A stretch of 64,000 nucleotides of DNA, taken from the NCBI GenBank assembly GCA_023436625.1, contig JAEZIP010000057.1, positions 8,313 through 72,312 on the forward strand, in the 5' to 3' direction. This document shows, piece after piece, positions 25,372 through 52,187 of the stretch (positions are counted from its first letter, which is position 1; each line of letters begins with the position of its first letter). Position numbers and translations under genes: made by a program. The notes beneath the pieces are model-generated. The model was not told the origin of the DNA. It did not search any database and saw only the letters and a list, made by a program, of their open reading frames with translations. The stretch comes from Methanobacteriota archaeon (GTDB taxonomy: Archaea > Halobacteriota > Methanomicrobia > Methanomicrobiales > Methanoculleaceae).

Positions 25372-26499
25372 ATGAAGATCGCCTATGTCTACGATGCCGT
25401 CTACCCCTGGGTGAAGGGCGGGGTCGAGAAGCGCATCCGCGAGGTCTCGGTCCGGCTTGCCGACCGGGGACATGAGGTCCACGTCTACGGGATGCGTTCC
25501 TGGGACGGTCCGACGACGATCGAGCGCGACGGGGTGGTGCTCCACGGTGTATGTCCGGTGGAGCCCCTCTATTCGGACGGTAGGCGGACGGTCCCGCAGG
25601 CGCTCCGGTTCGGCTCTTCGGTGCTCCGGCCGCTTCTCTCCTCCGGCGCCGACGTCGTCGACTGCCAGAACTTCCCCTACTTCTCCTGCTTTGCGGCGAA
25701 GGCAGCGTCGGTGCGGCGGGGATTCCCGCTCGTCGTCACCTGGCACGAGGTCTGGGGCGACTACTGGTACGACTATCTCGGACGGCGGGGAGCGTTCGGG
25801 AAGGCCGTCGAGCGGCTGACCGCCGGGCTCACCCCCCATCACATCGCGGTCTCGCCCTCGACGGCCCGGGCCCTCGAGGGCCTCGCGGTGCGAGGACCGG
25901 TCCCGGTCGTCCCGAACGGGATCGATCTTGCGGAGATCGCGACCGTCGCCCCGGCGGCGGAGGGATCCGACGTCATCTTCACCGGCCGGCTGATCCGGGA
26001 GAAGAACGTCGACCTCCTCCTCCGGGCGCTCGTGCCGCTCCGGGAGGAGGTTCCCGATCTCGGGGCCCTGATCGTCGGCGACGGCCCGGAGCGGCCGGCG
26101 CTCGAAGCCCTCGCGCGCGACCTCGGGCTTGACGGGGCGGTGACCTTCACCGGCTTTCTCCCCGACCATGACTCGGTCATCGCCGCGATGAAGGCTTCAA
26201 GGGTCTTCGTCCTCCCCTCGACCCGCGAGGGTTTCGGGATCGCGGCGCTGGAGGCGATGGCCTGCGGGTTGCCGGTGGTGACGACGGACCATCCCGGGAA
26301 CGCGGCGGGGGATCTCGTCGTGCCGGGGGTGAACGGGTTCTGTTGTGACCTCTCGGCGGGGGAGATGGGGGAGAAGATCCTGAAGGCGATCGGTTCTCCG
26401 GGTATCGACGGCAGCATGTGTGTGACGCTGGCAGAGTCTTACGACTGGAACCGCATCGTTGAAGCGCTCGAACAGCGGTACTTGTCTATCGTTCGGTAA
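25372..26499 (+). CDS. glycosyltransferase family 4 (GT-B)
   Basis: MKIAYVYD...GGVE N-terminus. C-terminal EGFGIAALEAMACGLPVV (E-x7-E region). Confidence 0.88.
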   Translation: MKIAYVYDAVYPWVKGGVEKRIREVSVRLADRGHEVHVYGMRSWDGPTTIERDGVVLHGVCPVEPLYSDGRRTVPQALRFGSSVLRPLLSSGADVVDCQNFPYFSCFAAKAASVRRGFPLVVTWHEVWGDYWYDYLGRRGAFGKAVERLTAGLTPHHIAVSPSTARALEGLAVRGPVPVVPNGIDLAEIATVAPAAEGSDVIFTGRLIREKNVDLLLRALVPLREEVPDLGALIVGDGPERPALEALARDLGLDGAVTFTGFLPDHDSVIAAMKASRVFVLPSTREGFGIAALEAMACGLPVVTTDHPGNAAGDLVVPGVNGFCCDLSAGEMGEKILKAIGSPGIDGSMCVTLAESYDWNRIVEALEQRYLSIVR

Positions 26500-26613
26500 G
26501 CTTCCGGGAAAACCGTACGGGGACGTTGAGATGGTAACAATTGTTGTAGGCTCCCAAATATCTTGGAAGACTTCAGCAGGGTAGATCCCCGACGTTCGCG
26601 ACGGAGTGTCACT

Positions 26614-27753
26614 ATGAGAATACTTCATGCCACTAAAAAATACCTGAACGCGATCGGTGGGGACGCCCGGGTTGTCTCCCATCTGGAGCAGGAACAGCAG
26701 CGCAGGGGTCATGAGGTATTCATTCTGACAGCCAACTGCCCGGAGATTGTGCGGAAAGAGAATGTTTTCCGGTTCGGGTTCAACGACAGGGCAGCCAGTC
26801 TGGATATGATTACGTTCAGAAGAATCCTCTCGCTCCTGATGCTGTCCGTCACCGGTTTCTTCCTCCTGCACCGCCTGAAACCGGATATTATCCATACCCA
26901 TTCCCCGGAGATCGGATATATCGTCTCTCTCCAGGCAGCGATCTTTCGTATCCCGGTGGTGAATACGTGCCACGGCGTCACCTTCTCCTATGAACAGTTC
27001 TCACCGATGAAACGCCGTGTTGAAACATTCTTTTTGAAATACGGGAAGTTCAAGGAGATTGTGACCGTTGACAGAAGCAGCCTCCCGTTCTTTGCCGGGC
27101 GTGCTATCAAAGGCGTCAGATATATCCCTAACGGGGTCAGCATCGAAGATTTTGCGAGGAGAGAACCGAGGGACTCACAGACTTCAGGCATTCGCTGCCT
27201 CTTCGTAGGCAGACTGGAGGAGCAGAAGGGCCTGAAGCATCTCATCCAGGCGTCAAAGCAGCTTTCGCAGGATATTCCGGATTACAGCCTCACCATCGTC
27301 GGAGAAGGCTCCCGGCGCGACGAACTGACCCGGATGATCACGGAGGCGGGTTTAAGCAATCGGATCCGGATCCTCGACCGGGTTGGTCTGGAGGAGTTGA
27401 AGGGATGGTATCACTCGTGCGATGTCTTTATCCTGCCGTCCATCTGGGAGGGCATGCCGCTGACCCTTCTGGAAGCGTGGGCGGCAGGTCTTCCTGCAAT
27501 TGTGACCTCTGTTGGGGATATTCCTTACCTCTGTAACGACAGGGAGAATGCCCTGATCGTTCGCCCCGGTGATCCCGGGGGTCTCTCAGACGCGGTGCAT
27601 CTCCTCGCCCGGGATGCGCAACTGCGGGATAACCTGGGCAAATGCGGTGAAAGAACCGTGAAAGGCGGCTACTCCTGGTCGAGCGTGGCGGACAGGTACC
27701 TGGATCTATACGACTCCGCCCGAGATCACGCCTCTCCACCCTCCCGGGGGTGA
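26614..27753 (+). CDS. glycosyltransferase family 4 (GT-B)
   Basis: MRILHATKKY...GGD N-terminus. EGMPLTLLEAWAAGLPAI. Start at ATG 26614. Confidence 0.88.
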   Translation: MRILHATKKYLNAIGGDARVVSHLEQEQQRRGHEVFILTANCPEIVRKENVFRFGFNDRAASLDMITFRRILSLLMLSVTGFFLLHRLKPDIIHTHSPEIGYIVSLQAAIFRIPVVNTCHGVTFSYEQFSPMKRRVETFFLKYGKFKEIVTVDRSSLPFFAGRAIKGVRYIPNGVSIEDFARREPRDSQTSGIRCLFVGRLEEQKGLKHLIQASKQLSQDIPDYSLTIVGEGSRRDELTRMITEAGLSNRIRILDRVGLEELKGWYHSCDVFILPSIWEGMPLTLLEAWAAGLPAIVTSVGDIPYLCNDRENALIVRPGDPGGLSDAVHLLARDAQLRDNLGKCGERTVKGGYSWSSVADRYLDLYDSARDHASPPSRG

Positions 27754-28030
27754 GAAACCGCTGGGGGAACGGCAGATGCCTGAGCATCATCTGGCCTGAT
27801 AGACTGGTCCCGGGTTGACATTCTGTAGTGACCCTTCGACCCTTACGGTGCTGTTCGACTGCCATTTTGCAGCTGGGGTTTGGTCGGGGAGTGATTGAAT
27901 CTGCTGCCGGTTCTCCCTCTCCGCAATATCAGGAGGCCCTCGACCTTCTTCTCCAGGGGGCACTAACCCATAATGGAAACCGAATAGGAGTTTTCATGTC
28001 CGATGCAGACAGAATATGTGCAGCTGCAGC

Positions 28031-29107
28031 ATGAAGATAGCAATATTTCACGACTATTTCGGGGCCATCGGGGGCGGAGAAAAGGTTGTTATAGCCCTTG
28101 CACAGGCGTTAGATGCGGACATCATCACGACGGACGTCGATGCAGTGGCAAGGATTGATTCCGCAGTACAGGTGACCAGCCTCGGACCTACAATTAAAAC
28201 ACCACCTTTCAAACAACTCTCGGCAACGCTGAAATTTTCTTCATGTGATTATTCTGACGAGTATGATTTTTTCGTTTTCAGTGGTAACTGGGCCCATTAT
28301 GCGGCTAAAAAGCACCATCCCAATCTGTGGTACTGCCATACGCCCGTGAGGGCGTTTTATGATCTCTATGGTACGTTTCTACAGAGACAGAGCCTCATCC
28401 AGAGGCAATTTTACAGGATATGGGTGACTGCCCACCGCAAATTCGACCAGAACGCGGTAAAGGATCTGGATCGGATCGTCACAAATTCTCAAAACACGCA
28501 GAGGAGAATTCAGAAATACTACGGTCGAGATTCGACCATAACCTATCCCCCTGTCGATACTTCAAGATATTTCTGCAAAGAGTACGGGGACTTCTGGCTC
28601 TCGGTGAACCGCCTCTACCCGGAGAAACGGATTGAACTGCAGATCGAAGCCTTCCGGTCGATGCCGGACGAGCACCTGGTCATCGTCGGCGGATACGCCG
28701 CCGGAGACCACTCGGGCCGTTACGTGGCCCGGCTCATGGAAGACCTCCCGGAGAACGTCGAGGTCCGGGGGGAGGTCACTGAAGAGGAGCTGATCGACCT
28801 CTACGCCCGGTGCAGGGGGCATGTCTGCACGGCACTGGACGAGGACTTCGGCCTGACACCGGTGGAGGCGATGGCCGCCGGGAAGCCGGTGGTTGCGGTG
28901 AACGAGGGTGGGTTTTGCGAGACGATGACGGCGGATACGGGGATGCTTGTTAAAGCCGATCCATCAGACCTCGCAGCGGCGATCGACGTGATCTCCGGGG
29001 ATCCGGAGAGATACAGAGATGCATGCATCAAACGATCAAAGTTCTTTGACATATCGGTTTTCGAGGAGAGATTACGAGCTCTTGTCCAGCCAGTGCAGGA
29101 GTTGTAG
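28031..29107 (+). CDS. glycosyltransferase family 4 (GT-B)
   Basis: MKIAIFHDYFGAIGGGEKV N-terminus. EDFGLTPVEAMAAGKPVV. Start at ATG 28031. Confidence 0.85.
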   Translation: MKIAIFHDYFGAIGGGEKVVIALAQALDADIITTDVDAVARIDSAVQVTSLGPTIKTPPFKQLSATLKFSSCDYSDEYDFFVFSGNWAHYAAKKHHPNLWYCHTPVRAFYDLYGTFLQRQSLIQRQFYRIWVTAHRKFDQNAVKDLDRIVTNSQNTQRRIQKYYGRDSTITYPPVDTSRYFCKEYGDFWLSVNRLYPEKRIELQIEAFRSMPDEHLVIVGGYAAGDHSGRYVARLMEDLPENVEVRGEVTEEELIDLYARCRGHVCTALDEDFGLTPVEAMAAGKPVVAVNEGGFCETMTADTGMLVKADPSDLAAAIDVISGDPERYRDACIKRSKFFDISVFEERLRALVQPVQEL

Positions 29108-29434
29108 GACATCACCCGGTCCGATTGGATAGTTCTGCGGGGAGGCCATCTCAAAACCTCTTTGCCTGGAGAGAGCTCCTCTCAGAGCCTCCTGTGGGGT
29201 AATCTGAATCTCCAGATTGGAGGAGAAGTCAATATTTGGGGACACGTCGAAGAACCGGACCACGGCTCAAACTCGAACGGATCCCTGTATTGCAAACTAT
29301 TTTGGGGTGACCATGTGGTCACGGGAAACCCATCTTACACGGGGAAACCTGGCGGGGTGATTCGACTGTATAAATATATCCGGATTAATATCAATCCAGA
29401 AACATTATACGGGCTAAATAACCATTACTCTGTC

Positions 29435-29911
29435 ATGAAAACGACCATCGACGGGGTGGCTGTTAAAAACTTACGTCTCATTCCGGACGAGCGGGGATGG
29501 CTCATGGAGATCCTCCGGTGTGACGACGCTATTTTCGAGAAATTCGGGCAGGTCTACTGCACGACGGCCTACCCCGGGGTTGTGAAAGCCTGGCATTATC
29601 ATAAGAAACAGACCGACAACTTCACCTGCATCCACGGGATGATGAAGGTCGCGCTCTACGATGCACGTGAGAATTCGCCCACCCGGGGAAACCTCATGGA
29701 GTTCTTCGTCGGGGAGAAGAACTCGATCCTCATCAGCGTCCCGCCCGGCGTCTATCACGGGTTCAAGGGGATCGGCACCGAGACCGCGTTCTTCGTGAGC
29801 ATCCCGACCCTGCCGTACAACTACGACGATCCGGACGAGTTCCGGCTTCCGCCCGACACGGGCGAGATCCCCTACGACTGGGGCCTTGCGCCCGGGCTGA
29901 AACACGGGTGA
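29435..29911 (+). CDS. rmlC: dTDP-4-dehydrorhamnose 3,5-epimerase family (cupin)
   Basis: IPDERGWLMEI, KAWHYHKKQTD and PPGVYHGF cupin motifs. Start at ATG 29435. The upstream 91 codons of the ORF are low-complexity and were discarded. Confidence 0.8.
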   Translation: MKTTIDGVAVKNLRLIPDERGWLMEILRCDDAIFEKFGQVYCTTAYPGVVKAWHYHKKQTDNFTCIHGMMKVALYDARENSPTRGNLMEFFVGEKNSILISVPPGVYHGFKGIGTETAFFVSIPTLPYNYDDPDEFRLPPDTGEIPYDWGLAPGLKHG

Positions 29912-29915
29912 CTCT

Positions 29916-30878
29916 ATGCGGATTCTCGTAACCGGCGGGCTCGGGTTCATCGGGAGCAACTTTATTCGGCAGATGCTTGAGGAGCACCCCGACGACACCG
30001 TCGTAAACCTGGATAAGATCACCTACGCCGGAAACCCGGAAAACCTGAAGAATATCGCCGGGAATCCACGGTATACGTTTATCCGGGGCGATATCTGCGA
30101 CCCGGAGATCGTCGGCTCCGTCTTCCGGGAACACCCGGTCGATGCCGTCGTCCATTTCGCGGCGGAGAGTCATGTCGACCGGTCGATAGAGGACGCCTCC
30201 GTCTTTGTCAGAACGAACGTCCTCGGCGCCCACGTGCTGCTCGAAGGGGCGCTGAGCCACGGTGTTAAGCGGTTTATCCACGTCTCGACCGACGAGGTCT
30301 ACGGGAGCATCCGGTCAGGATCCTTCCGGGAGACGGACAACCTGAACCCCTCGAGCCCCTACTCGGCGAGCAAGGCAGCCTCCGACCTTCTTGCGCGGTC
30401 GTACTATATCACCCACGATCTCGGCGTCATCGTCACCCGCTGCACGAACAACTTCGGACCCTACCAGTACCCGGAGAAACTCATTCCGCTCTTTGTCACC
30501 AACCTCCTTGAGGGAAAGAAGGTCCCCGTTTACGGCACCGGTCAGAACGTCCGCGACTGGATCTATGTGGCCGATCACTGCCGGGCGGTCGATTTCATCC
30601 TCCGCCACGGGGAGCCGGGGGAGATCTACAACATCGGGGGCGGCAACGAGAAGAGCAACCTCGAGATCACCGAAGGGATCCTAAAGACCCTCGGAAAGGA
30701 CGAGTCGATGATCGAGTACGTTCCCGACCGGCCGGGGCACGACTGGCGGTACTCGCTCGACTCCTCGAAGCTCCGGGCGATGGGTTGGAAGCCCGGATTC
30801 GCTTTCGAAACCGCCTTACGGGCGACTATCCAATGGTATACTGAGAATGAGTGGTGGTGGCGGCGGTTAAAACGGTAA
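29916..30878 (+). CDS. rmlB: dTDP-glucose 4,6-dehydratase
   Basis: ILVTGGLGFIGSNF, STDEVYG, YSASKAASD and RCTNNFGPYQYPEKLIP are classic RmlB motifs. Confidence 0.93.
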   Translation: MRILVTGGLGFIGSNFIRQMLEEHPDDTVVNLDKITYAGNPENLKNIAGNPRYTFIRGDICDPEIVGSVFREHPVDAVVHFAAESHVDRSIEDASVFVRTNVLGAHVLLEGALSHGVKRFIHVSTDEVYGSIRSGSFRETDNLNPSSPYSASKAASDLLARSYYITHDLGVIVTRCTNNFGPYQYPEKLIPLFVTNLLEGKKVPVYGTGQNVRDWIYVADHCRAVDFILRHGEPGEIYNIGGGNEKSNLEITEGILKTLGKDESMIEYVPDRPGHDWRYSLDSSKLRAMGWKPGFAFETALRATIQWYTENEWWWRRLKR

Positions 30879-31663
30879 TCTTCGGTGCATACGGGATGCT
30901 CGGCCACGACCTCGCAGCAGTTTTTCCTGGAGCGGTCCTCCACGGTCGTGAACTGGATATCACCGACGGGAAGGCGGTTTCTGCGTGCATCCGCGGCCTC
31001 TCTCCCGATCTGGTCGTCAATGCTGCTGCCTATACCGACGTCGATGGGTGCGAGGATAACCGGGATCTGGCGTTCGCCGTCAACGGGGAGGCGCTCGCAT
31101 ACATCGCCTCCGCCTGCTCGGACGTGGGGGCCACGCTCGTCCACTACAGCACGGATTACGTCTTTGACGGCTCGAAGACGGAATATACCGAGTCCGACGT
31201 GCCGAACCCCATCAACGTCTACGGGGCCTCCAAATTCCTCGGCGAGCAGAATATCGCAAAGAACATGGACGACTACCGGATCATCCGCACGTCCTGGCTT
31301 TTTGGGCGACACGGGAGGAACTTCGTCGAGACCATGCTTCACCTCTCGGGGCAGATGGACCCGGTCCGGGTGGTGGACGACCAGGTCGGGAAGCCGACGT
31401 ACACGGTCGACCTTGCCCGGAAGACGCCGGAGATCGTCGGATGTCCTCCCGGGATCTACCACGTCACGAACGACGGCGTCTGCTCGTGGTACGAGTTTGC
31501 GCGTGCGATTATCAAGAACGTGGTGCCCTGCTCGAGCGCAGAGTTCCCCCGGAAGGCGAAACGTCCGGCATATTCGGTGCTGATGAACACAAAGACGGCC
31601 CCGCTCCGGCACTGGAGCGGTGCGCTTGCCGATTATTTGAACTTAAAAGGTGAATCTCATTGA
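30851..31663 (+). CDS. rmlD: dTDP-4-dehydrorhamnose reductase
   Basis: IFGAYGMLG Rossmann motif, AAYTDVDGCE, STDYVFDG and YGASKFLGE. GTG start overlaps the rmlB 3-prime end. Confidence 0.88.
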   Translation: MVVAAVKTVIFGAYGMLGHDLAAVFPGAVLHGRELDITDGKAVSACIRGLSPDLVVNAAAYTDVDGCEDNRDLAFAVNGEALAYIASACSDVGATLVHYSTDYVFDGSKTEYTESDVPNPINVYGASKFLGEQNIAKNMDDYRIIRTSWLFGRHGRNFVETMLHLSGQMDPVRVVDDQVGKPTYTVDLARKTPEIVGCPPGIYHVTNDGVCSWYEFARAIIKNVVPCSSAEFPRKAKRPAYSVLMNTKTAPLRHWSGALADYLNLKGESH

Positions 31664-32445
31664 AAGGCGTAATTCTTGCCGGGGGTACCGGATCCCGCCT
31701 GTATCCCCTGACGAAGGTGACGAACAAGCACCTGCTGCCCGTGTACGATAAACCGATGATCTGTTACCCTCTGGAGAAGTTGATCGGTGCCGGCGTCGAG
31801 GAGATCATGATCGTCTCCGGCCGGGGGCACGTGGGGCATTTCCTTGAACTGCTCGGCTCAGGCTCGGAGTTCGGCGTCAGCATCACCTACGAGATCCAGG
31901 AAAATACCGGGGGGATTGCCCAGGCGCTCGGTCTTGCCCGGAAGTGGGCCGGGACCGGCAACATCGCGGTCATCCTCGGCGACAACATCTTCGAGGACGA
32001 CTTCCGGGACGAGATCGACTCGTTCGATAGGGGAGCGAAGGTCTTCTTAAAGGAGGTCTCCGACCCGCAGCGGTTCGGGGTGGCCGAGGTCGACGGCAGC
32101 CGGATCCTCTCGATCGAGGAGAAGCCGCAGGCGCCCAGGTCGAACCTTGCCGTCACGGGCCTGTATCTCTATGACGCACGGGTCTTTGAGATCATCCAGA
32201 CGCTCAAGCCTTCCGGTAGGGGCGAGCTCGAGATCACCGACGTGAATAACGCCTACGTCCGGGATGGCGAGCTGAAGTACAGCATTCTCCCGGGCTTCTG
32301 GAGCGATGCCGGAACGTTCGACAGCCTGATGCGGGCAAGCGTGATGGTCCAACGGCACCGGAAGAGGCAGGCGGAGTCGGCCTGCCCGGCGGTAACGGGG
32401 CGAGGAGAGCAACCGGATGATCAGCGTCGTCGTCACGAACTATAA
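31660..32445 (+). CDS. rmlA: glucose-1-phosphate thymidylyltransferase (short form)
   Basis: KGVILAGGTGSRLYPLT, GIAQAL, GDNIF and EKP motifs. TTG start overlaps the rmlD stop. Confidence 0.88.
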   Translation: MKGVILAGGTGSRLYPLTKVTNKHLLPVYDKPMICYPLEKLIGAGVEEIMIVSGRGHVGHFLELLGSGSEFGVSITYEIQENTGGIAQALGLARKWAGTGNIAVILGDNIFEDDFRDEIDSFDRGAKVFLKEVSDPQRFGVAEVDGSRILSIEEKPQAPRSNLAVTGLYLYDARVFEIIQTLKPSGRGELEITDVNNAYVRDGELKYSILPGFWSDAGTFDSLMRASVMVQRHRKRQAESACPAVTGRGEQPDDQRRRHEL

Positions 32446-33373
32446 CGGCCGGAAGTACCTGGCGGACTGCCTTTCTTCTCTTGCAGCACAGACTTACCGG
32501 GATTTCGAGACGATCGTGGTCGATAACGCTTCAACCGACGGCAGCGTGGAGTTTGTCGAGGAGAACTACCTGGAGGTCAGGATCGTCCGGAACCGGGAGA
32601 ACCTGGGATTCGCCGGGGGAACGAACGCCGGTATCCGTGCCGCCCGGGGGGAGTACGTCCTCACCCTGAACAACGATACGCGGGCCGACCCCGGTTTTCT
32701 GGAGCACCTCAGGGACGCCATGGACGTCGACACCGCTACGGGGATGTGCGCTGCAAAGATGCTCTTTCCGAATGGTTCGATAAACTCAACCGGGATCTGC
32801 ATCTCGCGGAGCGGCGCTGCCTGGGACCGGGGAATGTATGAGCCGGATCACGGACAGTATGACTGTTCCGAAGAGGTCTTCGGCCCCTGCGCCGGCGCCG
32901 CACTCTATCGGCGGGAGATGCTCGAGGAGATCGGGCTCTTCGACGAGGACTTCTTCCTCTACATGGATGATGTCGATCTGGCTTTTCGGGCCCGCCTTGC
33001 GGGCTGGGCGTGCCGCTATGTCCCGGAGGCGAAGGTCTACCACCACCACGGCGGCACCGCGGGCGTCGGGACCGACCTCGCCGTCTACTACGGGAACCGG
33101 AACTGCGTCTGGTACGTTGTAAAGAACTTCCCTTCGCGACTGCTCGTCACCTCGATCCCCTGGATTCTGGTGAGGAACCTCATTGTCGTGCCCTACTACG
33201 CGACGAAGGGGCGGGGGCGTGCAGTCGTCCGGTCCAAGGTCGATGCCGTGTGCGGTATTCCCCGGATGCTTCGCAAGCGCTCGAAGATCAGGCGGAAGGT
33301 GCCGGAGAGTGAGATCAGGCGATTCATACACACCTGGTGCAGTATCGGGAGACCTTCACATGTGGCTTGTTGA
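32417..33373 (+). CDS. glycosyltransferase family 2 (rhamnosyltransferase-like)
   Basis: ISVVVTNYNGRKYL...VVDNASTDGS, LNNDT and FFLYMDDVDLAFR motifs. Confidence 0.88.
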   Translation: MISVVVTNYNGRKYLADCLSSLAAQTYRDFETIVVDNASTDGSVEFVEENYLEVRIVRNRENLGFAGGTNAGIRAARGEYVLTLNNDTRADPGFLEHLRDAMDVDTATGMCAAKMLFPNGSINSTGICISRSGAAWDRGMYEPDHGQYDCSEEVFGPCAGAALYRREMLEEIGLFDEDFFLYMDDVDLAFRARLAGWACRYVPEAKVYHHHGGTAGVGTDLAVYYGNRNCVWYVVKNFPSRLLVTSIPWILVRNLIVVPYYATKGRGRAVVRSKVDAVCGIPRMLRKRSKIRRKVPESEIRRFIHTWCSIGRPSHVAC

Positions 33374-34121
33374 TTACAGAGATCTCATCTGGAACCTTAC
33401 GATCAGCGACCTGAAGGTCAGGTACCAGAGTTCGGTGCTCGGATTTGCCTGGTCGCTCTTGAACCCGCTCCTGATGATGCTGGTCCTCTACGCTGTCTTT
33501 ATGAACATCTTTCGGTTCGAGCAGGAGAACTTTGCGCTCTACCTCCTCATCGGGATCATTGTCTGGCGGTTCCTTGCCAACGGGACCATGACGGCGATGG
33601 GCTCGATCGTCGGCAGACCGGGCCTCGTGACCAAACTCTACATCCCCCGCCAGATCCTGGTGATGAGCTCCGTACTCTCGAGTTTCATCAGTTCCATCCT
33701 CGAGTTCGCGGTGCTGATCCCGCTGCTCTTTATCCTGGGTGCGAAGGTGACGCCGAACATCCTCTTCTTCCCGGTCGTGCACGGGATCTACTTCCTGATC
33801 GTCTACGGCGTATCCCTGGTCCTCGCCTCGCTCTTTGTCTACTTCCGGGACTTAAACCAGGTCTGGGACGTGGTTCTCCAGGCGGGGTTCTTCTTATCGC
33901 CGATCGTCTACCCCGTCAGCGTCATCCCGGCGGCGTTCCTCGGCTACTACATGCTCAACCCGATGACCGCACTCATTGAGACCTACCGGGAGTTCCTGCT
34001 CTACGGGGTGACGCCTTCCCCGGCAACCCTCCTCGCTCTCCTCATGGTTGGGACCGTGCTGGTCGCCGCGGGGATCCTGGTCTTCAGTCGGCTCGAGCGC
34101 CGGTTTGCGGAGGAGATCTGA
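33360..34121 (+). CDS. wzm: ABC-2 type polysaccharide export permease (Wzm/TagG-like)
   Basis: N-terminal LTISDLKVRYQSSVLGFAWSLLNP signature and six TM segments. ATG at 33360. Immediately followed by the ATPase gene. Confidence 0.85.
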   Translation: MWLVDYRDLIWNLTISDLKVRYQSSVLGFAWSLLNPLLMMLVLYAVFMNIFRFEQENFALYLLIGIIVWRFLANGTMTAMGSIVGRPGLVTKLYIPRQILVMSSVLSSFISSILEFAVLIPLLFILGAKVTPNILFFPVVHGIYFLIVYGVSLVLASLFVYFRDLNQVWDVVLQAGFFLSPIVYPVSVIPAAFLGYYMLNPMTALIETYREFLLYGVTPSPATLLALLMVGTVLVAAGILVFSRLERRFAEEI

Positions 34122-34874
34122 ATGAACAGCGACGAAGCGATCGTGGTCGAGCACCTCAGTAAGGAGTTCCGGATCCCCCACGACCGCAAGGTCACCGTGT
34201 ACGAGCATATCGTCGGGCTCCTCAAGGGTAGAAAGTACTCCTACGACCGGTTCTCGGCTCTGGACGACGTCTCCTTCACGGTCCGACGCGGAGAGACCTT
34301 CGGGGTCATCGGGCCGAACGGAAGCGGGAAGAGCACGCTTTTAAAGATCCTTGCCGGGGTGCTCTACCCCGACTCCGGGAATGTCCGGGTGAACGGCAAG
34401 ATTGCTCCCTTCCTCGAACTCGGGGTCGGGTTCCAGCCGGACCTCACGGCCAGGGAGAACATCTACCTCTACGGCTCGATCATGGGCCTGACCCGGAAGG
34501 AGATCGGGAAACGTTACGACGAGATCCTCGACTTCTCCGAGCTGCGGCGTTTCGAGAACATGAAGCTCAAGAACTTCTCGTCGGGGATGGCGGTCCGGCT
34601 TGCGTTTGCGACGGCGATCCAGACGGACCCCGATATCCTGCTGGTGGACGAGGTGCTTGCCGTCGGCGACGAGGCTTTCCAGCGCAAGTGCAACGCGAAG
34701 ATCGAGGAGATCCGACGCGAGGGGAAGACGATCATCGTGGTCTCGCATGCCCTCGGGACGGTGCAGGAGCTGTGCGAGCGGTGTATGCTGCTGAAGGGCG
34801 GCAGGGTTATCTCGTCGGGGGAGACCGGCAGGGTGGTCGAGGAGTATCTGCGGGTTTCGGCGGCGGGGTCGTAG
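34122..34874 (+). CDS. wzt: polysaccharide export ABC transporter ATP-binding protein (Wzt/TagH-like), NBD only
   Basis: Walker A GPNGSGKST, signature FSSGMAVRLAF, Walker B ILLVDE. At 250 aa there is no room for a C-terminal carbohydrate-binding domain. Confidence 0.9.
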   Translation: MNSDEAIVVEHLSKEFRIPHDRKVTVYEHIVGLLKGRKYSYDRFSALDDVSFTVRRGETFGVIGPNGSGKSTLLKILAGVLYPDSGNVRVNGKIAPFLELGVGFQPDLTARENIYLYGSIMGLTRKEIGKRYDEILDFSELRRFENMKLKNFSSGMAVRLAFATAIQTDPDILLVDEVLAVGDEAFQRKCNAKIEEIRREGKTIIVVSHALGTVQELCERCMLLKGGRVISSGETGRVVEEYLRVSAAGS

Positions 34875-34919: not shown

Positions 34920-37900
34920 ATGAGTCCGATTTACGAAGATCATCGTTCAACGAGGTATGAACCCCCGGTCATCGACCTGGAGAACAAAAACAATAGCCAG
35001 GTCCTCTTGATCGAACTAATAGGGGCGGGGAAAAACATCCTTGAGGTCGGCACGTCCACCGGCTACGTCAGCCGAATCCTCAAAGAACGGGGGAATACCG
35101 TCACCGGCATCGAGATCGACCCGGGAGCAGGCGAGATTGCCGGACAGCACTGCGACTCGATGTTCATCGGGGATATCGAGAAACTGGACCTTGATGCCTA
35201 CCTTGCTCCTTCCTCCTTCGACGTGATCATATTCGGGGATGTTCTGGAGCACTTGGTCTCCCCGGAGGATGTACTCAGGAAGGTGAAGAAGTACCTCCGG
35301 CCGGACGGATTCCTGGCCATTTCTCTACCGAACGTCTGCCATGGGGATGTAATCTTAAACCTATTCATGGGTGACTTCAAGTATACCTCGATGGGGCTTT
35401 TAGATGCCACCCATCTGCGTTTCTTCGGGCTCAGGAATATCATCGATCTCTTTAGCCGTTGTGGATATTCAATAACCGATATTCGTACGACGGTGCTGCC
35501 TGTCGGGGGCACCGAGCAGAGAGTCGATCCTGGACTTGTTCCGGAGGATCTCGCCAACTTCGTGAAGTCTCTTCCAAATTCGAGTGTTTATCAGTATGTC
35601 TTTACAGCGAGTCCTTCTCCGGGCCCAGGGGCGGTGGAGGCGGCTCCTGCACCTGATCTCGAGGGTCTGTTTCGCGGGGCCATTGAGGGGAGTATTCAGG
35701 CTGAGACCAAACCGTTGTTAGAGGAACTTAGTGCATACGAAGTACGCATAGCCTCATTCGATGAGCAGATCAAGCAGTTGATAGGGAAATCCGAGTCACT
35801 GCAGAAGGCTATCGCAGAGCGTGATGCGCAGGTTGCTTCGCTCAATGAGCAGATTACTCTGTCAGATGAGATACTTCGGTCTCTGAAAAAGGTTCTTGCT
35901 GATCGCGATGCACAGATTGCTTCGCTCGATGAGCAGACTCAGCAGCAGGCAGTCCAGTTAGTGCACTTATCCAATGAGCTTGCCAGTATGAAGCAAAGCG
36001 TTGTGTGGCAGTTGTTGATGAAATTTCATAGTGGATTTGTTGAGAGGATTCTTCCACAAAATACCCGCAGAAGGAAGTTATACACTCTTGGGTTAGTGGG
36101 ATTAAGGGTCCTCATACACGAAGGGCCAGGAAGTCTCTGGATGCATGGGAAAAGGAGGTTGGGGAATAAATTTCGATTAAGGTTGTTAAATCTCAAAGAA
36201 CCAGTATTAAGGATCTCTTTAGAGGCGTATGATGGGAATGTCCCGCTACCACTAGACAATCCGTTAATGGGGCGCTTTATTTCACCAACAAATGAGTTAC
36301 ATGCCATTGAAGTCCTGACCGAGACATATGAAAGGCGTAATGCAGACCTGCGGTTATCTATCAGGGAAGGTTCGCCTGAGGGGCGGGTCGTCCGCGAGGC
36401 GCTGCTCAAAGGCAGCAGGATTATAAACAATGGATACAGTTGGTGGGGGTTTAAACCCATTCCCGATAGTAAGGAGAAAGTGTACTATTTCCAGATTGAA
36501 TCTACAGGGTCTCCATCAGCTGCGGTCTGGTATAATTCGACTCCTCTCAATGAGAAACTGCAACTTTTCAGAGATGGAAACGAGATCAATGGTCAAATAG
36601 GGTTTCAGTGTTTCACAAAGGAAGCAATCCGGGATCCATACAGACTCTGGATCCTGCAAAACGATCCTTCGGAGGCCCAGCTTGAGCAGATGCGGAAAGA
36701 GTGTGTAACCTTTTCTTACCGGCCGAAGATCAGTATCGTAACGCCGGTATGGAATACGGATGAGAGATGGTTACGGCGTGCTATTGAGTCGGTCCTTGAG
36801 CAGACATACGACAACTGGGAACTCTGTATTGCTGACGGAGGTTCCACAAGGGAATCTGTAGAGAGGGTACTTAAAGAGTACGCCGAAAAAGACTCACGAA
36901 TTAAGGTGAAATCTCTGGATGAGAACAAGGGGATTTCTGGGAACTCCAACGAAGCTCTTTCGCTAGCAGCGGGGGATTTCATCGGGCTTCTTGACCATGA
37001 CGATGAACTGGCTCCCTTCGCACTGTGCGAGGTTGTAAAACTTCTGAATAAAAAGAGACATGTGAGTTTTATCTATTCGGATGAGGATAAAATCGATGAA
37101 AAGAGGAGGCGGAATAATCCATTCTTTAAGCCGGATTGGTCCCCGGACACATTCTTTTCGCACAACTATATCTGTCACTTCTCAGTTATCAAACGAGAAC
37201 TCGTTCAGAGGGTTGGAGGCTTTCGGGAAGGATATGATGGGTCCCAGGATTACGACCTCTTCTTGCGGGTCACCGAAACACTCGATGAAAGGGAAATTGC
37301 GCATATCCCAAAGATCCTCTATCATTGGAGAACAATTCAGGGTTCTGCTGCAGATAACGTAGAGGCTAAACCTTATGCAATTGTAGCCGCGAAAAAAGCT
37401 CTGGCCAATGCACTTTATCGGCGTGGCATAAAGGCTTCTGTGTTGGATGGACCATACCTCAGTTCATATAGGGTTCGGTATGAGATTACAGGCAACCCCA
37501 AGGTTTCAATAATCATCCCTACAAAAGACAAGGTGGGCGTACTGCAGACCTGTGTCAACTCTATTCTCGAGATGACTGATTATGAGAATTATGAGGTTGT
37601 CATTGTTGATAACCAGAGCCGCGAACCGGAAACCCACGATTACTATCAGCGGATCAAGAATAATCCGCACGTAAAGGTTCTTGAATATGATAGCCCCTTT
37701 AATTTCTCTGCCATCAATAATTTCGCAGTAGCGCACGCTGATGGGGAGTATCTCGTTCTTCTAAATAACGATACGGAAATTGTCGCTGAAGAGTGGCTGA
37801 CTGCGATGCTCGAACACGCACAGCGAGAGGAGGTGGGTGCGGTCGGGGCAAAACTCCTGTATTATAATAATACCATTCAGCATGCGGGCGTTGTTCTCGG

Positions 37901-38339
37901 AATAACGGGTAGTCCCGGCGAAAAAGGTGTTGCTGGTCACTCTCATAAGCATCTTTCAGATCGTGCGCTTGGGTATTTCTTACGACCCCATATTATTGGA
38001 AATGTGAGCGCGGTTACTGCAGCGTGCATGATGGTAAGGAGGGATGTCTATGAGCAAGTTGGAGGACTTGAGGAAGATCTGGTTGTTGCCTTCAATGATG
38101 TTGACTTTTGTCTAAAAATTCGTGATAGAGGGTACCTTATTGTTTATACGCCCTATGCCAAACTTTACCACTATGAGTCGTTGAGCAGAGGATACGAAGA
38201 TAATCCCGAGAAACAGGCACGGTTTTTGAAGGAAGTTCGGTATGTCCGAGAAAAATGGGGGGGCGTCATTGACACTGGAGATCCTTATTATAATCCTAAT
38301 TTGACTTTGGAAAGAGAAGATTTTTCTGCGAATATTTAA
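34920..38339 (+). CDS. multidomain protein: class I SAM methyltransferase, coiled coil, unknown middle domain, two GT2 glycosyltransferase domains
   Basis: aa 30-230 are the methyltransferase (ILEVGTSTG, FGDVLEHL). aa about 262-350 are heptad-rich with three 28-aa repeats. aa about 600-850 are GT2 domain 1 (ISIVTPVWN, DHDDEL). aa about 870-1130 are GT2 domain 2 (VSIIIPTKD, LNNDTE). Confidence 0.85.
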   Translation: MSPIYEDHRSTRYEPPVIDLENKNNSQVLLIELIGAGKNILEVGTSTGYVSRILKERGNTVTGIEIDPGAGEIAGQHCDSMFIGDIEKLDLDAYLAPSSFDVIIFGDVLEHLVSPEDVLRKVKKYLRPDGFLAISLPNVCHGDVILNLFMGDFKYTSMGLLDATHLRFFGLRNIIDLFSRCGYSITDIRTTVLPVGGTEQRVDPGLVPEDLANFVKSLPNSSVYQYVFTASPSPGPGAVEAAPAPDLEGLFRGAIEGSIQAETKPLLEELSAYEVRIASFDEQIKQLIGKSESLQKAIAERDAQVASLNEQITLSDEILRSLKKVLADRDAQIASLDEQTQQQAVQLVHLSNELASMKQSVVWQLLMKFHSGFVERILPQNTRRRKLYTLGLVGLRVLIHEGPGSLWMHGKRRLGNKFRLRLLNLKEPVLRISLEAYDGNVPLPLDNPLMGRFISPTNELHAIEVLTETYERRNADLRLSIREGSPEGRVVREALLKGSRIINNGYSWWGFKPIPDSKEKVYYFQIESTGSPSAAVWYNSTPLNEKLQLFRDGNEINGQIGFQCFTKEAIRDPYRLWILQNDPSEAQLEQMRKECVTFSYRPKISIVTPVWNTDERWLRRAIESVLEQTYDNWELCIADGGSTRESVERVLKEYAEKDSRIKVKSLDENKGISGNSNEALSLAAGDFIGLLDHDDELAPFALCEVVKLLNKKRHVSFIYSDEDKIDEKRRRNNPFFKPDWSPDTFFSHNYICHFSVIKRELVQRVGGFREGYDGSQDYDLFLRVTETLDEREIAHIPKILYHWRTIQGSAADNVEAKPYAIVAAKKALANALYRRGIKASVLDGPYLSSYRVRYEITGNPKVSIIIPTKDKVGVLQTCVNSILEMTDYENYEVVIVDNQSREPETHDYYQRIKNNPHVKVLEYDSPFNFSAINNFAVAHADGEYLVLLNNDTEIVAEEWLTAMLEHAQREEVGAVGAKLLYYNNTIQHAGVVLGITGSPGEKGVAGHSHKHLSDRALGYFLRPHIIGNVSAVTAACMMVRRDVYEQVGGLEEDLVVAFNDVDFCLKIRDRGYLIVYTPYAKLYHYESLSRGYEDNPEKQARFLKEVRYVREKWGGVIDTGDPYYNPNLTLEREDFSANI

Positions 38340-50255: not shown

Positions 50256-50440
50256 GTATTGACTCTTGTTTCAGATTATTTAACGCTGACGAGTTGCTCG
50301 GAAACCTTTTCCCCATGTGGAGCAACGTCCGTCAGGCAGGTGCCGGAAATACCGCGTTTCTGGAGTTCTCCCTCGCTCAATGTTGTCGGCGGCGCCGTTA
50401 ATCGAGAATCAAAGTCTTCTTACGGTATTCCGCCACTATA

Positions 50441-52153: not shown

Positions 52154-52187
52154 GTATGGAGATGGTTTCGAGAGGCGGGTCTGTCGA

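What the first reader, a model, noticed from the sequence alone, without database searches (positions are those of the whole stretch)
29435..34874. Complete dTDP-rhamnose pathway plus Wzm/Wzt ABC exporter inside an AglB locus; Wzt lacks a glycan-recognition domain
rmlC, rmlB, rmlD, rmlA, a GT2, wzm and wzt are packed co-directionally with overlapping or abutting stops and starts (29435-34874). This is a bacterial-type ABC-transporter-dependent export route placed about 4 kb from aglB. The lipid-linked-glycan flippase of archaeal N-glycosylation is still poorly defined, so a Wzm/Wzt pair here is a candidate translocator for a dolichol-linked polymer. Wzt is only 250 aa, so it is an NBD alone. 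It therefore cannot read a methylated chain end the way E. coli O9a Wzt does through its C-terminal carbohydrate-binding module. That makes its coupling to the neighbouring methyltransferase fusion mechanistically unclear.
Basis: partly seen in the sequence, partly recalled or inferred. Interest (0 to 1): 0.65.

Follow-up and report, generated by a model that had tools for sequence, protein, structure and literature searches.

The report
Archaeal polysaccharide ABC-exporter locus near AglB
Next to its protein-glycosylating enzyme AglB, a Methanoculleus-type methanogen carries a conserved operon that makes activated rhamnose and should pump a lipid-linked sugar polymer outwards through a Wzm/Wzt transporter lacking the usual cap-reading domain; it matches a locus in M. 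marisnigri, which makes a rhamnose polysaccharide, so it is an informative variant of a known pathway, not a new kind.

Summary
rmlC, rmlB, rmlD, rmlA, a GT2, wzm and wzt lie head-to-tail at 29435-34874 with junctions from -29 to +4 nt, 4.2 kb from a canonical aglB. Wzt is 250 aa and is a nucleotide-binding domain (NBD) only.

This block is the conserved core of an ABC-transporter-dependent polysaccharide pathway. It recurs in five orders of methanogens and is followed by a low-GC variable region encoding a methyltransferase/coiled-coil/GT2-GT2 enzyme. M. marisnigri JR1 has the same locus (86-95% identical core proteins, same 250-aa Wzt). There the literature reports a rhamnose/ribofuranose surface polysaccharide of unknown attachment, and short rhamnose-free S-layer N-glycans.

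So Wzm/Wzt most likely exports a polymer, not the ordinary N-glycan. The window also holds two Wzx-type flippases.

aglB linkage is nevertheless real. It occurs in 16 of 59 archaeal loci, and in three families aglB is same-strand and directly adjacent. An N-linked polymer therefore stays open.

Methanosarcina and Methanoperedens orthologues keep a Pfam Wzt_C carbohydrate-binding module (CBM) beside the same kind of terminator enzyme. Methanomicrobiales and Methanothrix lack it. No replacement CBM was found in the window. The best reading is ungated export, as in Klebsiella O2a.

Verdict: a new variant of a known kind.

The parts
22786..25242 (-). aglB, long-type archaeal oligosaccharyltransferase (818 aa, WWDYG at residue 539)
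   Evidence: Pfam STT3, AglB_core-like and AglB_L1. Motif found. 79-90% identical in Methanoculleus loci L001, L002 and L049.
25372..29107 (+). Three GT4 glycosyltransferase genes (25372-26499, 26563-27753, 28016-29107), divergent from aglB. They are candidates for N-glycan or primer/adaptor steps.
   Evidence: Pfam Glycos_transf_1 and Glyco_transf_4. GT4a is conserved beside aglB in many loci, at 44-83% identity.
29108..29434 (+). 327-nt intergenic region with an AT-rich TATA-like element (ATAAATATAT, 29370-29379). Probable promoter of the rmlC-to-wzt unit.
   Evidence: Read directly from the sequence. Inference only; no transcription start site data.
29435..29911 (+). rmlC-like cupin (158 aa), probable dTDP-4-dehydrorhamnose 3,5-epimerase
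   Evidence: Pfam dTDP_sugar_isom 53.7 bits. PDB 3EJK E 2e-24, archaeal RmlC 2B9U/1EP0 E 1e-7 to 1e-10. 95% identical in M. marisnigri JR1. Below the NCBIfam equivalog cutoff.
29916..30878 (+). rmlB, dTDP-glucose 4,6-dehydratase
   Evidence: TIGR01181, 486 bits against a cutoff of 365.
30851..31663 (+). rmlD, dTDP-4-dehydrorhamnose reductase
   Evidence: TIGR01214, 294 bits against a cutoff of 224. Frame and start checked.
31660..32445 (+). rmlA, short glucose-1-phosphate thymidylyltransferase (261 aa)
   Evidence: Pfam NTP_transferase 196.6 bits. TIGR01207 scores 262, below its cutoff of 361. The N-terminus reads LKGVILAGGTGSRL.
32417..33373 (+). Conserved GT2 that overlaps wzm. Probable adaptor (WbbL/ORF3-O7-like) glycosyltransferase.
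   Evidence: Pfam Glycos_transf_2 112.7 bits. 57-86% identical and directly upstream of wzm in most loci. The role is inferred by analogy with PMC11231755.
33360..34121 (+). wzm, ABC-2 permease (253 aa)
   Evidence: Pfam ABC2_membrane. Full-length match to Aquifex Wzm 6M96_B. 2317 homologues found; the listed ones are 64-91% identical and almost all exactly 253 aa.
34122..34874 (+). wzt, NBD-only ATPase (250 aa) with no Wzt_C module
   Evidence: Best PDB matches are the Aquifex Wzt NBD (E 5e-58) and TagH/TarH. Motifs read. The same 250-252 aa length is found in four other Methanoculleus genomes.
34920..38339 (+). 1139-aa enzyme: methyltransferase, coiled coil, beta-jelly-roll and two GT2 domains. 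Putative terminator-ruler-polymerase. This is the first gene of the low-GC variable region.
   Evidence: Pfam. GC 0.48 against 0.58-0.62 for the core. Residues 430-592 fold as a jelly-roll, pLDDT 88. The first 423 aa are 80% identical to the JR1 ORF6-O7 homologue, but the GT2 part is only 41% identical.
38365..39279 (+). Stand-alone methyltransferase (304 aa, GC 0.39)
   Evidence: Pfam Methyltransf_23, 45 bits. GC.
47258..53459 (.). Two Wzx-type (Polysacc_synt) flippase genes, each beside a GT-C/PMT_2 gene. They are alternative candidate flippases for short glycans.
   Evidence: Pfam.

Best explanation
The block 29435-34874 is the conserved core of an ABC-transporter-dependent surface-polysaccharide pathway in a Methanoculleus-type methanogen.

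Proposed mechanism:
1. RmlA, RmlB, RmlC and RmlD supply dTDP-L-rhamnose. This is shown at the level of family assignment.
2. A lipid-linked primer is made, presumably on dolichol phosphate or pyrophosphate. The conserved GT2 and/or the upstream GT4s extend it as an adaptor (inferred).
3. The downstream methyltransferase/coiled-coil/GT2-GT2 enzyme polymerises a rhamnose-containing chain at the cytoplasmic face. It stops growth by methylating the non-reducing end, and the coiled coil sets chain length (inferred by homology to K. pneumoniae ORF6-O7 and Geobacillus WsaE).
4. Wzm2Wzt2 then moves the lipid-linked polymer across the membrane.
5. Wzt is NBD-only, so the transporter does not check for the cap. 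Export is ungated, as with the CBM-less K. pneumoniae O2a transporter and TagGH. The cap serves chain-length control only.

The final acceptor is not established. It could be protein Asn via AglB, a lipid anchor or another ligase.

The locus splits like bacterial O-antigen and S-layer-glycan clusters: a conserved supply-and-export core, then a low-GC, strain-variable polymerase region.
For: - Family assignments and PDB matches of all seven genes.
- Operon-like junctions and the GC break right after wzt.
- rml genes plus GT2-wzm-wzt recur in Methanoculleus, Methanocorpusculaceae, Methanocalculus, Methanoregulaceae, Methanotrichaceae, Methanosarcina, Methanoperedens and Methanocellaceae.
- M. 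marisnigri JR1 has the orthologous locus: aglB, GT4, GT4, rmlCBDA, GT2, wzm, a 250-aa wzt, a 996-aa MT-CC-GT2-GT2 gene and a 608-aa HAD-like gene.
- PMC11231755 states that JR1 makes a surface polysaccharide with the K. pneumoniae O7 (Rha/Ribf) backbone and encodes ORF6-O7 and ORF7-O7 homologues.
- Metatranscriptome contigs of ~89%-identical relatives run across rmlC-rmlB, rmlB-rmlD-rmlA, and rmlA-GT2-wzm-wzt plus 1.9 kb beyond.
- Ungated export has an experimental precedent. The CBM-less O2a transporter couples export to synthesis and can export the capped O3a glycan (PMC11231755).
- No Wzt_C-like sequence occurs anywhere in the 64-kb window.
- A profile search for stand-alone CBMs found none attributed to Methanomicrobiales.
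Against: - No glycan chemistry, genetics or transcript data exist for this strain.
- The JR1 polysaccharide has not been tied genetically to the locus, and I could not read the primary paper (Kelly et al. 2022, not held).
- RmlC and RmlA fall below NCBIfam equivalog cutoffs.
- PMC11231755 says that in all characterised terminated systems Wzt carries a CBM. A terminator paired with an NBD-only Wzt therefore has no characterised natural precedent, and the methyltransferase might not be a terminator here.
- A cap reader could be encoded elsewhere in the genome.
- Metatranscriptome contigs can contain DNA carry-over and come from relatives, not from this strain.
Confidence: 0.7

Rival explanations
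1. The exported polymer is handed to AglB, or to a dedicated AglB paralogue, and becomes an N-linked polysaccharide on a surface protein. On this reading Wzm/Wzt is the flippase of a polymer branch of archaeal N-glycosylation. This extends the best explanation at the acceptor step.
For: - An AglB homologue lies within 10 kb in 16 of 59 archaeal loci, and in 8 of the 24 that have at least 9 kb on both sides. Roughly 1-2% would be expected for a random gene (my estimate).
- Pfam-verified AglB sits on the same strand ~120 nt upstream of rmlC in Methanocorpusculaceae and Methanocalculus, and 130 nt upstream of wzm in a Methanoregulaceae MAG.
- Halobacterium salinarum carries an N-linked repeating-unit glycan built on dolichol pyrophosphate.
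- The Methanosaeta sheath glycan was reported to be Asn-linked through rhamnose (both in PMC2952790).
- M. harundinacea has AglB copies associated with a rhamnose sub-cluster (PMC9128505).
Against: - In M. marisnigri the known S-layer N-glycans are short and rhamnose-free (PMC11407970).
- The rhamnose polymer there is called an 'unknown surface polysaccharide' (PMC11231755).
- Glycosylation genes cluster around aglB in general, so proximity alone is weak evidence.
- Two thirds of the fully flanked loci have no aglB within 10 kb.
Confidence: 0.3
2. Wzm/Wzt is the flippase for the ordinary short N-glycan that AglB transfers. This is the strong form of the first reader's idea.
For: - aglB linkage.
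- The N-glycan flippase of methanogens has not been identified (PMC2952790).
Against: - The transporter is always tied to rml genes and usually to large coiled-coil polymerases. M. marisnigri N-glycans contain no rhamnose (PMC11407970).
- The window has two Wzx-type flippases.
- Characterised members of the Wzm/Wzt and TagGH family move polymers.
Confidence: 0.08
3. Cap-gated export is retained. A carbohydrate-binding module supplied in trans reads the methylated end. The reader could be the beta-jelly-roll domain of the 1139-aa enzyme or a separate protein encoded elsewhere.
For: - Residues ~440-575 of the 1139-aa enzyme form a confident beta-jelly-roll (pLDDT 88). It shows weak structural similarity to CBM6 modules (E 4e-3 to 3e-2).
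- ORF6-O7 also has an unexplained CBM-like domain (PMC11231755).
Against: - The same jelly-roll domain is present in enzymes that sit beside CBM-bearing Wzt (L015, L023, L031, L044). It therefore does not replace the Wzt CBM.
- No Wzt_C structure was among the 50 best fold matches listed.
- No Wzt_C-like sequence occurs in the window.
- The stand-alone Wzt_C hits are mostly gene fragments, and none is named Methanomicrobiales.
Confidence: 0.12
4. The pair is a TagGH-like exporter for a non-rhamnose polymer, such as a polyol-phosphate or teichuronic-type polymer. On this reading the rml genes serve a different glycan.
For: Wzt scores almost as well against TagH/TarH (176-185 bits) as against O-antigen Wzt.
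Against: - rml genes directly abut GT2-wzm-wzt, with overlapping junctions, in most lineages.
- The scores are far below the TagH equivalog cutoffs of 320-538.
- No CDP-glycerol or CDP-ribitol genes were seen among the ORFs examined in the cluster.
Confidence: 0.04

Closest known systems
Methanoculleus marisnigri JR1 locus (CP000562.1, about 153-182 kb) and its Rha/Ribf surface polysaccharide
   Same: Same gene order: aglB, GT4s, rmlCBDA, GT2, wzm, a 250-aa wzt, then an MT-coiled-coil-GT2-GT2 gene. Core proteins are 86-95% identical and the methyltransferase domain is 90% identical. PMC11231755 reports a polysaccharide with the O7 backbone in this strain.
   Different: - The window's GT2 polymerase modules are only 38-45% identical to JR1's.
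- The JR1 608-aa ORF7-like putative ribofuranosyltransferase has no homologue in the window, so a different polymer is expected.
- JR1 has a 4.6-kb insertion between aglB and the first GT4.
- The window has an extra GT4.
Klebsiella pneumoniae O7 rfb cluster (rmlD, rmlC, wzm, wzt, ORF3 GT2, ORF6, ORF7; PMC11231755)
   Same: It has the same module set: rml genes, a GT2 adaptor rhamnosyltransferase, Wzm/Wzt, and one protein combining an N-terminal methyltransferase, a coiled coil and two C-terminal GT2 modules.
   Different: - There, as in the other terminated systems, export of only capped chains is attributed to a CBM on Wzt (PMC11231755). Here Wzt is NBD-only.
- ORF6-O7 also has a kinase domain and makes a methylphosphate cap. 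No room for a kinase is evident here.
- The carrier there is undecaprenyl-PP and the acceptor is lipid A-core via WaaL. Here the carrier is presumably dolichol-based and the acceptor is unknown.
Geobacillus stearothermophilus NRS 2004/3a S-layer glycan (slg) cluster (PMC2943079)
   Same: - wzm, wzt and wsaE have overlapping junctions.
- WsaE combines an N-terminal O-methyltransferase with two rhamnosyltransferase domains.
- The cluster contains rmlACBD and has low GC.
- The polymer ends up on a surface protein through an oligosaccharyltransferase encoded in the cluster.
   Different: - That is O-linkage through WsaB (O-antigen-ligase type), not an STT3/AglB enzyme.
- Wzt there is predicted to bind the 2-O-methyl cap.
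- The organism is a bacterium and the carrier is undecaprenol.
K. pneumoniae O2a/O1 Wzm-Wzt, and TagGH/TarGH
   Same: Wzt is NBD-only with no CBM. Export is not dependent on a terminal cap. The O2a transporter can export a capped heterologous glycan (PMC11231755).
   Different: Those systems have no coiled-coil terminator. Chain length is set by the ratio of transporter to synthesis complex. Here a terminator-type enzyme is encoded next door.
Aquifex aeolicus WzmWzt (PDB 6AN5, 6M96, 7K2T, 8DKU; PMC9445017)
   Same: It is the best structural homologue of both subunits: Wzt NBD E 5e-58, Wzm E 2e-16 over the full length.
   Different: Aquifex Wzt is 404 aa with a C-terminal carbohydrate-binding domain. 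The window's Wzt ends where that NBD ends.
Halobacterium salinarum repeating-unit N-glycan on dolichol pyrophosphate (PMC2952790)
   Same: It is an archaeal precedent for a polymeric glycan made on a lipid carrier and N-linked outside the cell, alongside short N-glycans on the same protein.
   Different: No transporter is known for it, it contains no rhamnose, and it belongs to a different lineage. The relation is by analogy only.

Membership tests
Wzm/Wzt-TagGH class of ABC-2 glycan exporters | Permease with the ABC-2 membrane domain, homologous over its full length to a structurally solved Wzm | tested here: met
   Pfam ABC2_membrane 62.8 bits against a cutoff of 26.9. Aquifex Wzm 6M96_B matches at E 2.3e-16, covering chain residues 5-251 of 256.
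Wzm/Wzt-TagGH class of ABC-2 glycan exporters | Separate NBD subunit with intact ATPase motifs, encoded next to the permease | tested here: met
   wzt starts on the base after the wzm stop. GPNGSGKST, SSGM, LLVDE and VSH motifs are present. Best PDB matches are Wzt and TagH/TarH.
Wzm/Wzt-TagGH class of ABC-2 glycan exporters | Equivalog-level identity to TagH, TagG/KpsM or the mycobacterial galactan Wzm/Wzt | tested here: not met
   All NCBIfam scores are far below cutoffs: TagH 176 against 320, galactan Wzt 170 against 400, galactan Wzm 59 against 380. The pair belongs to the class but is not an orthologue of any named exporter.
Wzm/Wzt-TagGH class of ABC-2 glycan exporters | Transport of a polyprenyl-(pyro)phosphate-linked polymer | not testable with these tools
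   Needs genetics or biochemistry.
Cap-gated (CBM-bearing) Wzt, E. coli O9a/O8 and K. pneumoniae O12/O4/O7 type | C-terminal Wzt_C carbohydrate-binding module (PF14524) on the NBD | tested here: not met
   No Wzt_C hit, and the protein ends at NBD residue 250. Orthologues in Methanosarcina and Methanoperedens do have it, at 71-101 bits against a cutoff of 30.4.
Cap-gated (CBM-bearing) Wzt, E. coli O9a/O8 and K. pneumoniae O12/O4/O7 type | A coiled-coil terminator enzyme encoded in the same locus | tested here: met
   The 1139-aa protein has an N-terminal methyltransferase, a heptad-rich segment at about residues 270-370 and two GT2 domains. It is homologous to the JR1 ORF6-O7 homologue. Terminator activity itself was not tested.
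dTDP-L-rhamnose pathway (RmlABCD) | RmlB and RmlD at equivalog level | tested here: met
   TIGR01181 scores 486 against 365. TIGR01214 scores 294 against 224.
dTDP-L-rhamnose pathway (RmlABCD) | RmlA and RmlC at equivalog level | tested here: inconclusive
   RmlA: TIGR01207 scores 262, below 361. RmlC: TIGR01221 scores 42, below 156. Both pass the Pfam family cutoffs. RmlC matches archaeal RmlC structures at E 1e-7 to 1e-10. The four genes travel together in many lineages.
AglB-dependent N-glycosylation (agl) cluster | Canonical AglB (STT3 fold, WWDYG) in the locus | tested here: met
   Pfam STT3, AglB_core and AglB_L1. WWDYG at residue 539.
AglB-dependent N-glycosylation (agl) cluster | The glycan moved by Wzm/Wzt is the one AglB transfers | not testable with these tools
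   Only linkage could be tested, and it is enriched but not universal. Published M. marisnigri N-glycans lack rhamnose (PMC11407970).

The most novel reading that the evidence does not exclude
In class-II methanogens the aglB-linked Wzm/Wzt pump is the ATP-driven flippase of a polymer branch of N-glycosylation. It would deliver a methyl-capped, dolichol-linked rhamnan to AglB. In some lineages the recipient would be a dedicated AglB paralogue whose WWDYG sequon-reading motif is changed to LWYWG. The result would be N-linked polysaccharides, an archaeal counterpart of bacterial S-layer glycans and O antigens. The loss of the Wzt CBM in Methanomicrobiales and Methanotrichales, while Methanosarcina and Methanoperedens keep it, would mark a natural switch from cap-gated to ungated export within one orthologous family.
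Probability: 0.25. Interest if true: 0.8.

Novelty: new variant of a known kind. Interest (0 to 1): 0.5.

Why it matters
Archaeal lipid-linked-glycan translocation is poorly defined. This family gives a concrete, widely conserved ATP-driven candidate for at least one glycan class.

It sits next to aglB in several orders, and a chemically detected product exists in a cultured relative (M. marisnigri JR1).

The family also offers a natural comparison that bacterial work lacks. Orthologous transporters with and without the cap-reading CBM occur beside the same kind of coiled-coil terminator-polymerase. This allows a direct test of whether cap recognition is needed when a terminator is present.

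The CBM-bearing form occurs in Methanosarcina, a genus with genetic tools.

Tried and rejected
- **Whole-genome tools.** I could not search the window's own genome for a detached Wzt_C, further aglB copies or an initiating phosphoglycosyltransferase.
- **RmlD query in the wrong frame.** My first RmlD query (30885-31663) was in the wrong frame and gave misleadingly weak synteny. Redone with 30851-31663.
- **RNA data.** No run holds this strain; shares of sampled words were 0.04-0.12. Only contigs of ~89%-identical relatives could be laid on the window. Co-transcription is therefore supported in relatives only, with the usual DNA carry-over caveat.
- **Bacterial promoter/terminator scan.** Not informative for an archaeon.
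- **CBM in trans.** tblastn of ten Wzt_C segments against the window gave a best E of 0.07. A profile search for stand-alone CBMs gave 49 hits, mostly fragments. The jelly-roll domain of the 1139-aa enzyme has only generic CBM6-like fold matches, and it is also present beside CBM-bearing Wzt. This idea was rejected as the main explanation.
- **Direction of CBM gain or loss.** The NBD tree needs at least three changes. One short form (L014) is nested in the Methanosarcina CBM clade with support 99. The large short-form clade has only 81% SH-aLRT support, and the root is arbitrary. The direction stays open.
- **Papers not held.** Kelly et al. 2022 (Glycobiology cwac019) and Mann et al. 2019 (Glycobiology cwz066). 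They are cited only through PMC11231755 and PMC11407970.
- **Initiating transferase.** No initiating polyprenyl-phosphate sugar-phosphate transferase was seen among the window ORFs I scanned.

Full report
**Observation**

The + strand between 29435 and 34874 carries seven tightly packed genes:

| Gene | Coordinates | Key evidence |
|---|---|---|
| rmlC-like cupin | 29435-29911 | Pfam dTDP_sugar_isom 53.7 bits |
| rmlB | 29916-30878 | TIGR01181, 486 bits |
| rmlD | 30851-31663 | TIGR01214, 294 bits |
| rmlA | 31660-32445 | Pfam NTP_transferase 197 bits |
| GT2 | 32417-33373 | Pfam Glycos_transf_2 |
| wzm | 33360-34121 | 253 aa, ABC2_membrane |
| wzt | 34122-34874 | 250 aa |

The junctions are +4, about -28, -4 (TTGA), -29, -14 and 0 nt.

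A 327-nt AT-rich spacer with a TATA-like element precedes rmlC.

aglB lies at 22786-25242 on the - strand. It has STT3, AglB_core and AglB_L1 domains and a WWDYG motif. It is 4.2 kb away and divergent from three GT4 genes.

Both transporter subunits match the Aquifex aeolicus WzmWzt structures best. Wzt aligns only to residues 28-238 of the 404-aa chain, so the carbohydrate-binding domain is absent. All ATPase motifs are intact.

The only caveat is that RmlC and RmlA pass Pfam cutoffs but not NCBIfam equivalog cutoffs. RmlC matches archaeal RmlC structures at E 1e-7 to 1e-10.

**Wider context in the window**

Everything from aglB to the window's end is a glycosylation island. It includes two Wzx-type flippases, each beside a GT-C gene.

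GC is 0.58-0.62 from rmlC to wzt. Immediately after wzt it falls to 0.48 in the 1139-aa methyltransferase/coiled-coil/GT2-GT2 gene and to 0.39-0.44 beyond it.

This is the split seen in bacterial O-antigen and S-layer-glycan clusters: a conserved supply-and-export core followed by a low-GC variable region (PMC2943079).

**Comparative evidence**

Wzm has 2317 homologues at E <= 1e-10. The listed ones are 64-91% identical and almost all exactly 253 aa.

A scan of one genome per species returned 80 loci, 59 of them archaeal. rml genes plus GT2-wzm-wzt recur in these lineages:
- Methanoculleus
- Methanocorpusculaceae
- Methanocalculus
- Methanoregulaceae
- Methanotrichaceae
- Methanosarcina
- Methanoperedens
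- Methanocellaceae

In function this is a bacterial-type route. As a lineage it is a long-resident archaeal family, and a Dehalococcoidia clade nests inside it.

**aglB linkage**

An AglB homologue lies within the fetched flanks in 16 of 59 archaeal loci. Among the 24 loci with at least 9 kb on both sides, 8 have one.

Pfam-verified AglB sits on the same strand about 120 nt upstream of rmlC in a Methanocorpusculaceae MAG and a Methanocalculus MAG. In a Methanoregulaceae MAG it sits 130 nt upstream of wzm.

**The Methanoculleus marisnigri JR1 counterpart**

The window's Wzm falls in the same 90% cluster as the JR1 protein.

The JR1 locus reads, in order:
- aglB
- a 4.6-kb insertion of toxin-antitoxin/SLFN-type genes
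- GT4, GT4
- rmlC, rmlB, rmlD, rmlA
- GT2
- wzm
- wzt (250 aa)
- a 996-aa MT-coiled-coil-GT2-GT2 gene
- a 608-aa HAD-like gene

Identity to the window is 86-95% for the core and 90% for the methyltransferase domain. It is only 38-45% for the two GT2 modules. The 608-aa gene is absent from the window.

PMC11231755 reports that JR1 makes 'an unknown surface polysaccharide' with the backbone of the K. pneumoniae O7 antigen. It also reports that JR1 encodes homologues of ORF6-O7 (terminator-polymerase) and ORF7-O7 (ribofuranosyltransferase).

The gene content I found downstream of wzt in JR1 fits that description. The O7 cluster has the same parts list: rml genes, wzm, wzt, a GT2 adaptor rhamnosyltransferase, ORF6 and ORF7.

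PMC11407970 describes an M. marisnigri S-layer N-linked trisaccharide, plus a related second N-glycan, without rhamnose. From memory of the primary paper's abstract, the second glycan is a disaccharide, both are glucose-linked and both are rhamnose-free.

The simplest reading is that this module makes and exports a separate rhamnose-containing polymer, not the ordinary N-glycan. The window strain should make a different polymer from JR1.

**Expression**

No public run holds this strain.

Metatranscriptome contigs from biogas and digester samples, about 89% identical to the window, run continuously across three stretches:
- rmlC-rmlB
- rmlB-rmlD-rmlA
- the 3' end of rmlA through GT2, wzm and wzt; one contig continues 1.9 kb further

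This supports expression and polycistronic transcription in close relatives, with the usual DNA carry-over caveat.

**The missing CBM**

PMC11231755 says that in all characterised terminated systems a CBM on Wzt reads the cap. It also says that the CBM-less O2a transporter couples export to synthesis and can export the capped O3a glycan in an engineered strain.

Both Wzt forms occur within this one archaeal family:
- About 40 archaeal Wzt are 240-290 aa.
- Eight are 416-444 aa: Methanosarcina L015, L017 and L023; Methanoperedens and relatives L031, L032, L039, L040 and L044.
- The four long forms I scanned (L015, L031, L040, L044) have Pfam Wzt_C at 71-101 bits.

MT-coiled-coil-GT enzymes follow both forms:
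- Long Wzt: L015, L023, L031, L044.
- Short Wzt: the window, JR1, L049, L002, L010, L012, L020.

Both methyltransferase sub-types occur with both Wzt forms.

An NBD tree needs at least three CBM changes. One short form is nested in the Methanosarcina CBM clade with support 99. The large short-form clade has only 81% support, so the direction of change is open.

I looked for a replacement cap reader and found none:
- No Wzt_C-like sequence occurs in the window; the best E was 0.07.
- The stand-alone Wzt_C proteins in the big database are mostly fragments, and none is attributed to Methanomicrobiales.
- The confident beta-jelly-roll at residues 440-575 of the 1139-aa enzyme has only generic CBM6-like fold matches. 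It is equally present next to CBM-bearing Wzt.

The best-supported reading is ungated export, with the methyl cap and coiled coil acting only on chain length.

**Mechanism, with status of each step**

- dTDP-Rha supply: shown by family assignment.
- Lipid primer and adaptor made by the conserved GT2 and/or the GT4s: inferred by analogy to WbbL and ORF3-O7.
- Polymerisation and capping by the 1139-aa enzyme: inferred by homology.
- Export by Wzm2Wzt2 without cap check: inferred from the architecture and the O2a precedent.
- Final acceptor: unknown.

AglB-mediated N-linkage of the polymer is a live possibility, which I put at about 0.3. The supporting points are:
- the linkage data above;
- the Halobacterium repeating-unit N-glycan;
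- the reported Asn-rhamnose linkage in the Methanosaeta sheath (PMC2952790);
- the association of AglB copies with a rhamnose sub-cluster in M. harundinacea (PMC9128505).

**Novelty**

The pathway type is well known in bacteria. The JR1 homologues of ORF6 and ORF7 have been noted in print.

As far as my searches show, three things are new:
- the breadth and conservation of this Wzm/Wzt family in methanogens;
- its recurrent and sometimes operonic linkage to aglB;
- the natural pairing of a terminator-type enzyme with an NBD-only Wzt, while sister lineages keep the CBM.

I file it as a new variant of a known kind, with interest 0.5.

**Limits**

Two key papers were not held. No chemistry or genetics exists for this strain.

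Noticed in passing
L003:3905-5947 and L004:729-2717: The AglB paralogues directly upstream of rmlC in a Methanocorpusculaceae MAG and a Methanocalculus MAG pass Pfam STT3 and AglB_core. They carry LWYWG where canonical AglB has WWDYG, the motif that reads the +2 Ser/Thr of the sequon. L024 has LWDYG. These could be transferases with an altered acceptor rule, dedicated to the polymer.
   Followed up: partly
L051-L069 (Dehalococcoidia/Chloroflexota loci); L069:2-1813: A 12-member Dehalococcoidia Wzt clade nests inside the archaeal short-Wzt group (support 99). One of these bacterial contigs also carries an STT3/AglB-like gene with WWDYG, 8 kb from wzm. This suggests transfer of the module between methanogens and their syntrophic neighbours.
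   Followed up: partly
L084:296-3296 and L084:958-1044 (M. marisnigri JR1): JR1 has a 4.6-kb insertion between aglB and the first GT4. It holds VapB-like, DUF1016 and SLFN/AlbA_2 ATPase genes. A 29-aa duplicate of the GT4 N-terminus (96% identical) is left as a scar.
   Followed up: partly
window 36207-36695 (residues 430-592 of the 1139-aa protein): A conserved beta-jelly-roll domain (pLDDT 88) lies between the coiled coil and the first GT2 module. It is shared by homologues in Methanothrix, Methanosarcina and Methanoperedens. It has weak CBM6-like fold matches and its function is unknown.
   Followed up: partly
L059:10001-11602 and L059:16263-18253: One Methanocellaceae genome carries two Wzm/Wzt pairs 6 kb apart. 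The first has a short Wzt. The second has a Wzt_C-like C-terminal extension.
   Followed up: no
L031, L039 versus L015, L017, L023, L044: The Wzt CBM sequence type seems to track the neighbouring methyltransferase type. The divergent CBMs of L031 and L039 sit with the Methyltransf_23-type domain. The mutually similar CBMs of L015, L023 and L044 sit with the 'LPFDLYTRN' type. This fits cap-specific recognition, but the sample is very small.
   Followed up: no
L002:11644-16080: In M. sediminis the gene after wzt encodes a 1479-aa protein with methyltransferase, coiled-coil, WbsX, GT4 and GT2 parts. Strains thus keep the capping head and swap the polymerase modules.
   Followed up: partly
window 30885-31583: A 232-aa alternative-frame ORF inside rmlD stays open, and looks 'conserved' (about 70%) in relatives, simply because of high GC and DNA conservation. 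It misled my first synteny table.
   Followed up: yes
window 42266-43759 and 57962-59368 (- strand): Two large proteins in the island have no Pfam hit: a 497-aa protein with five N-terminal TM segments, and a 468-aa protein. They are candidates for unknown ligase or polymerase functions.
   Followed up: no
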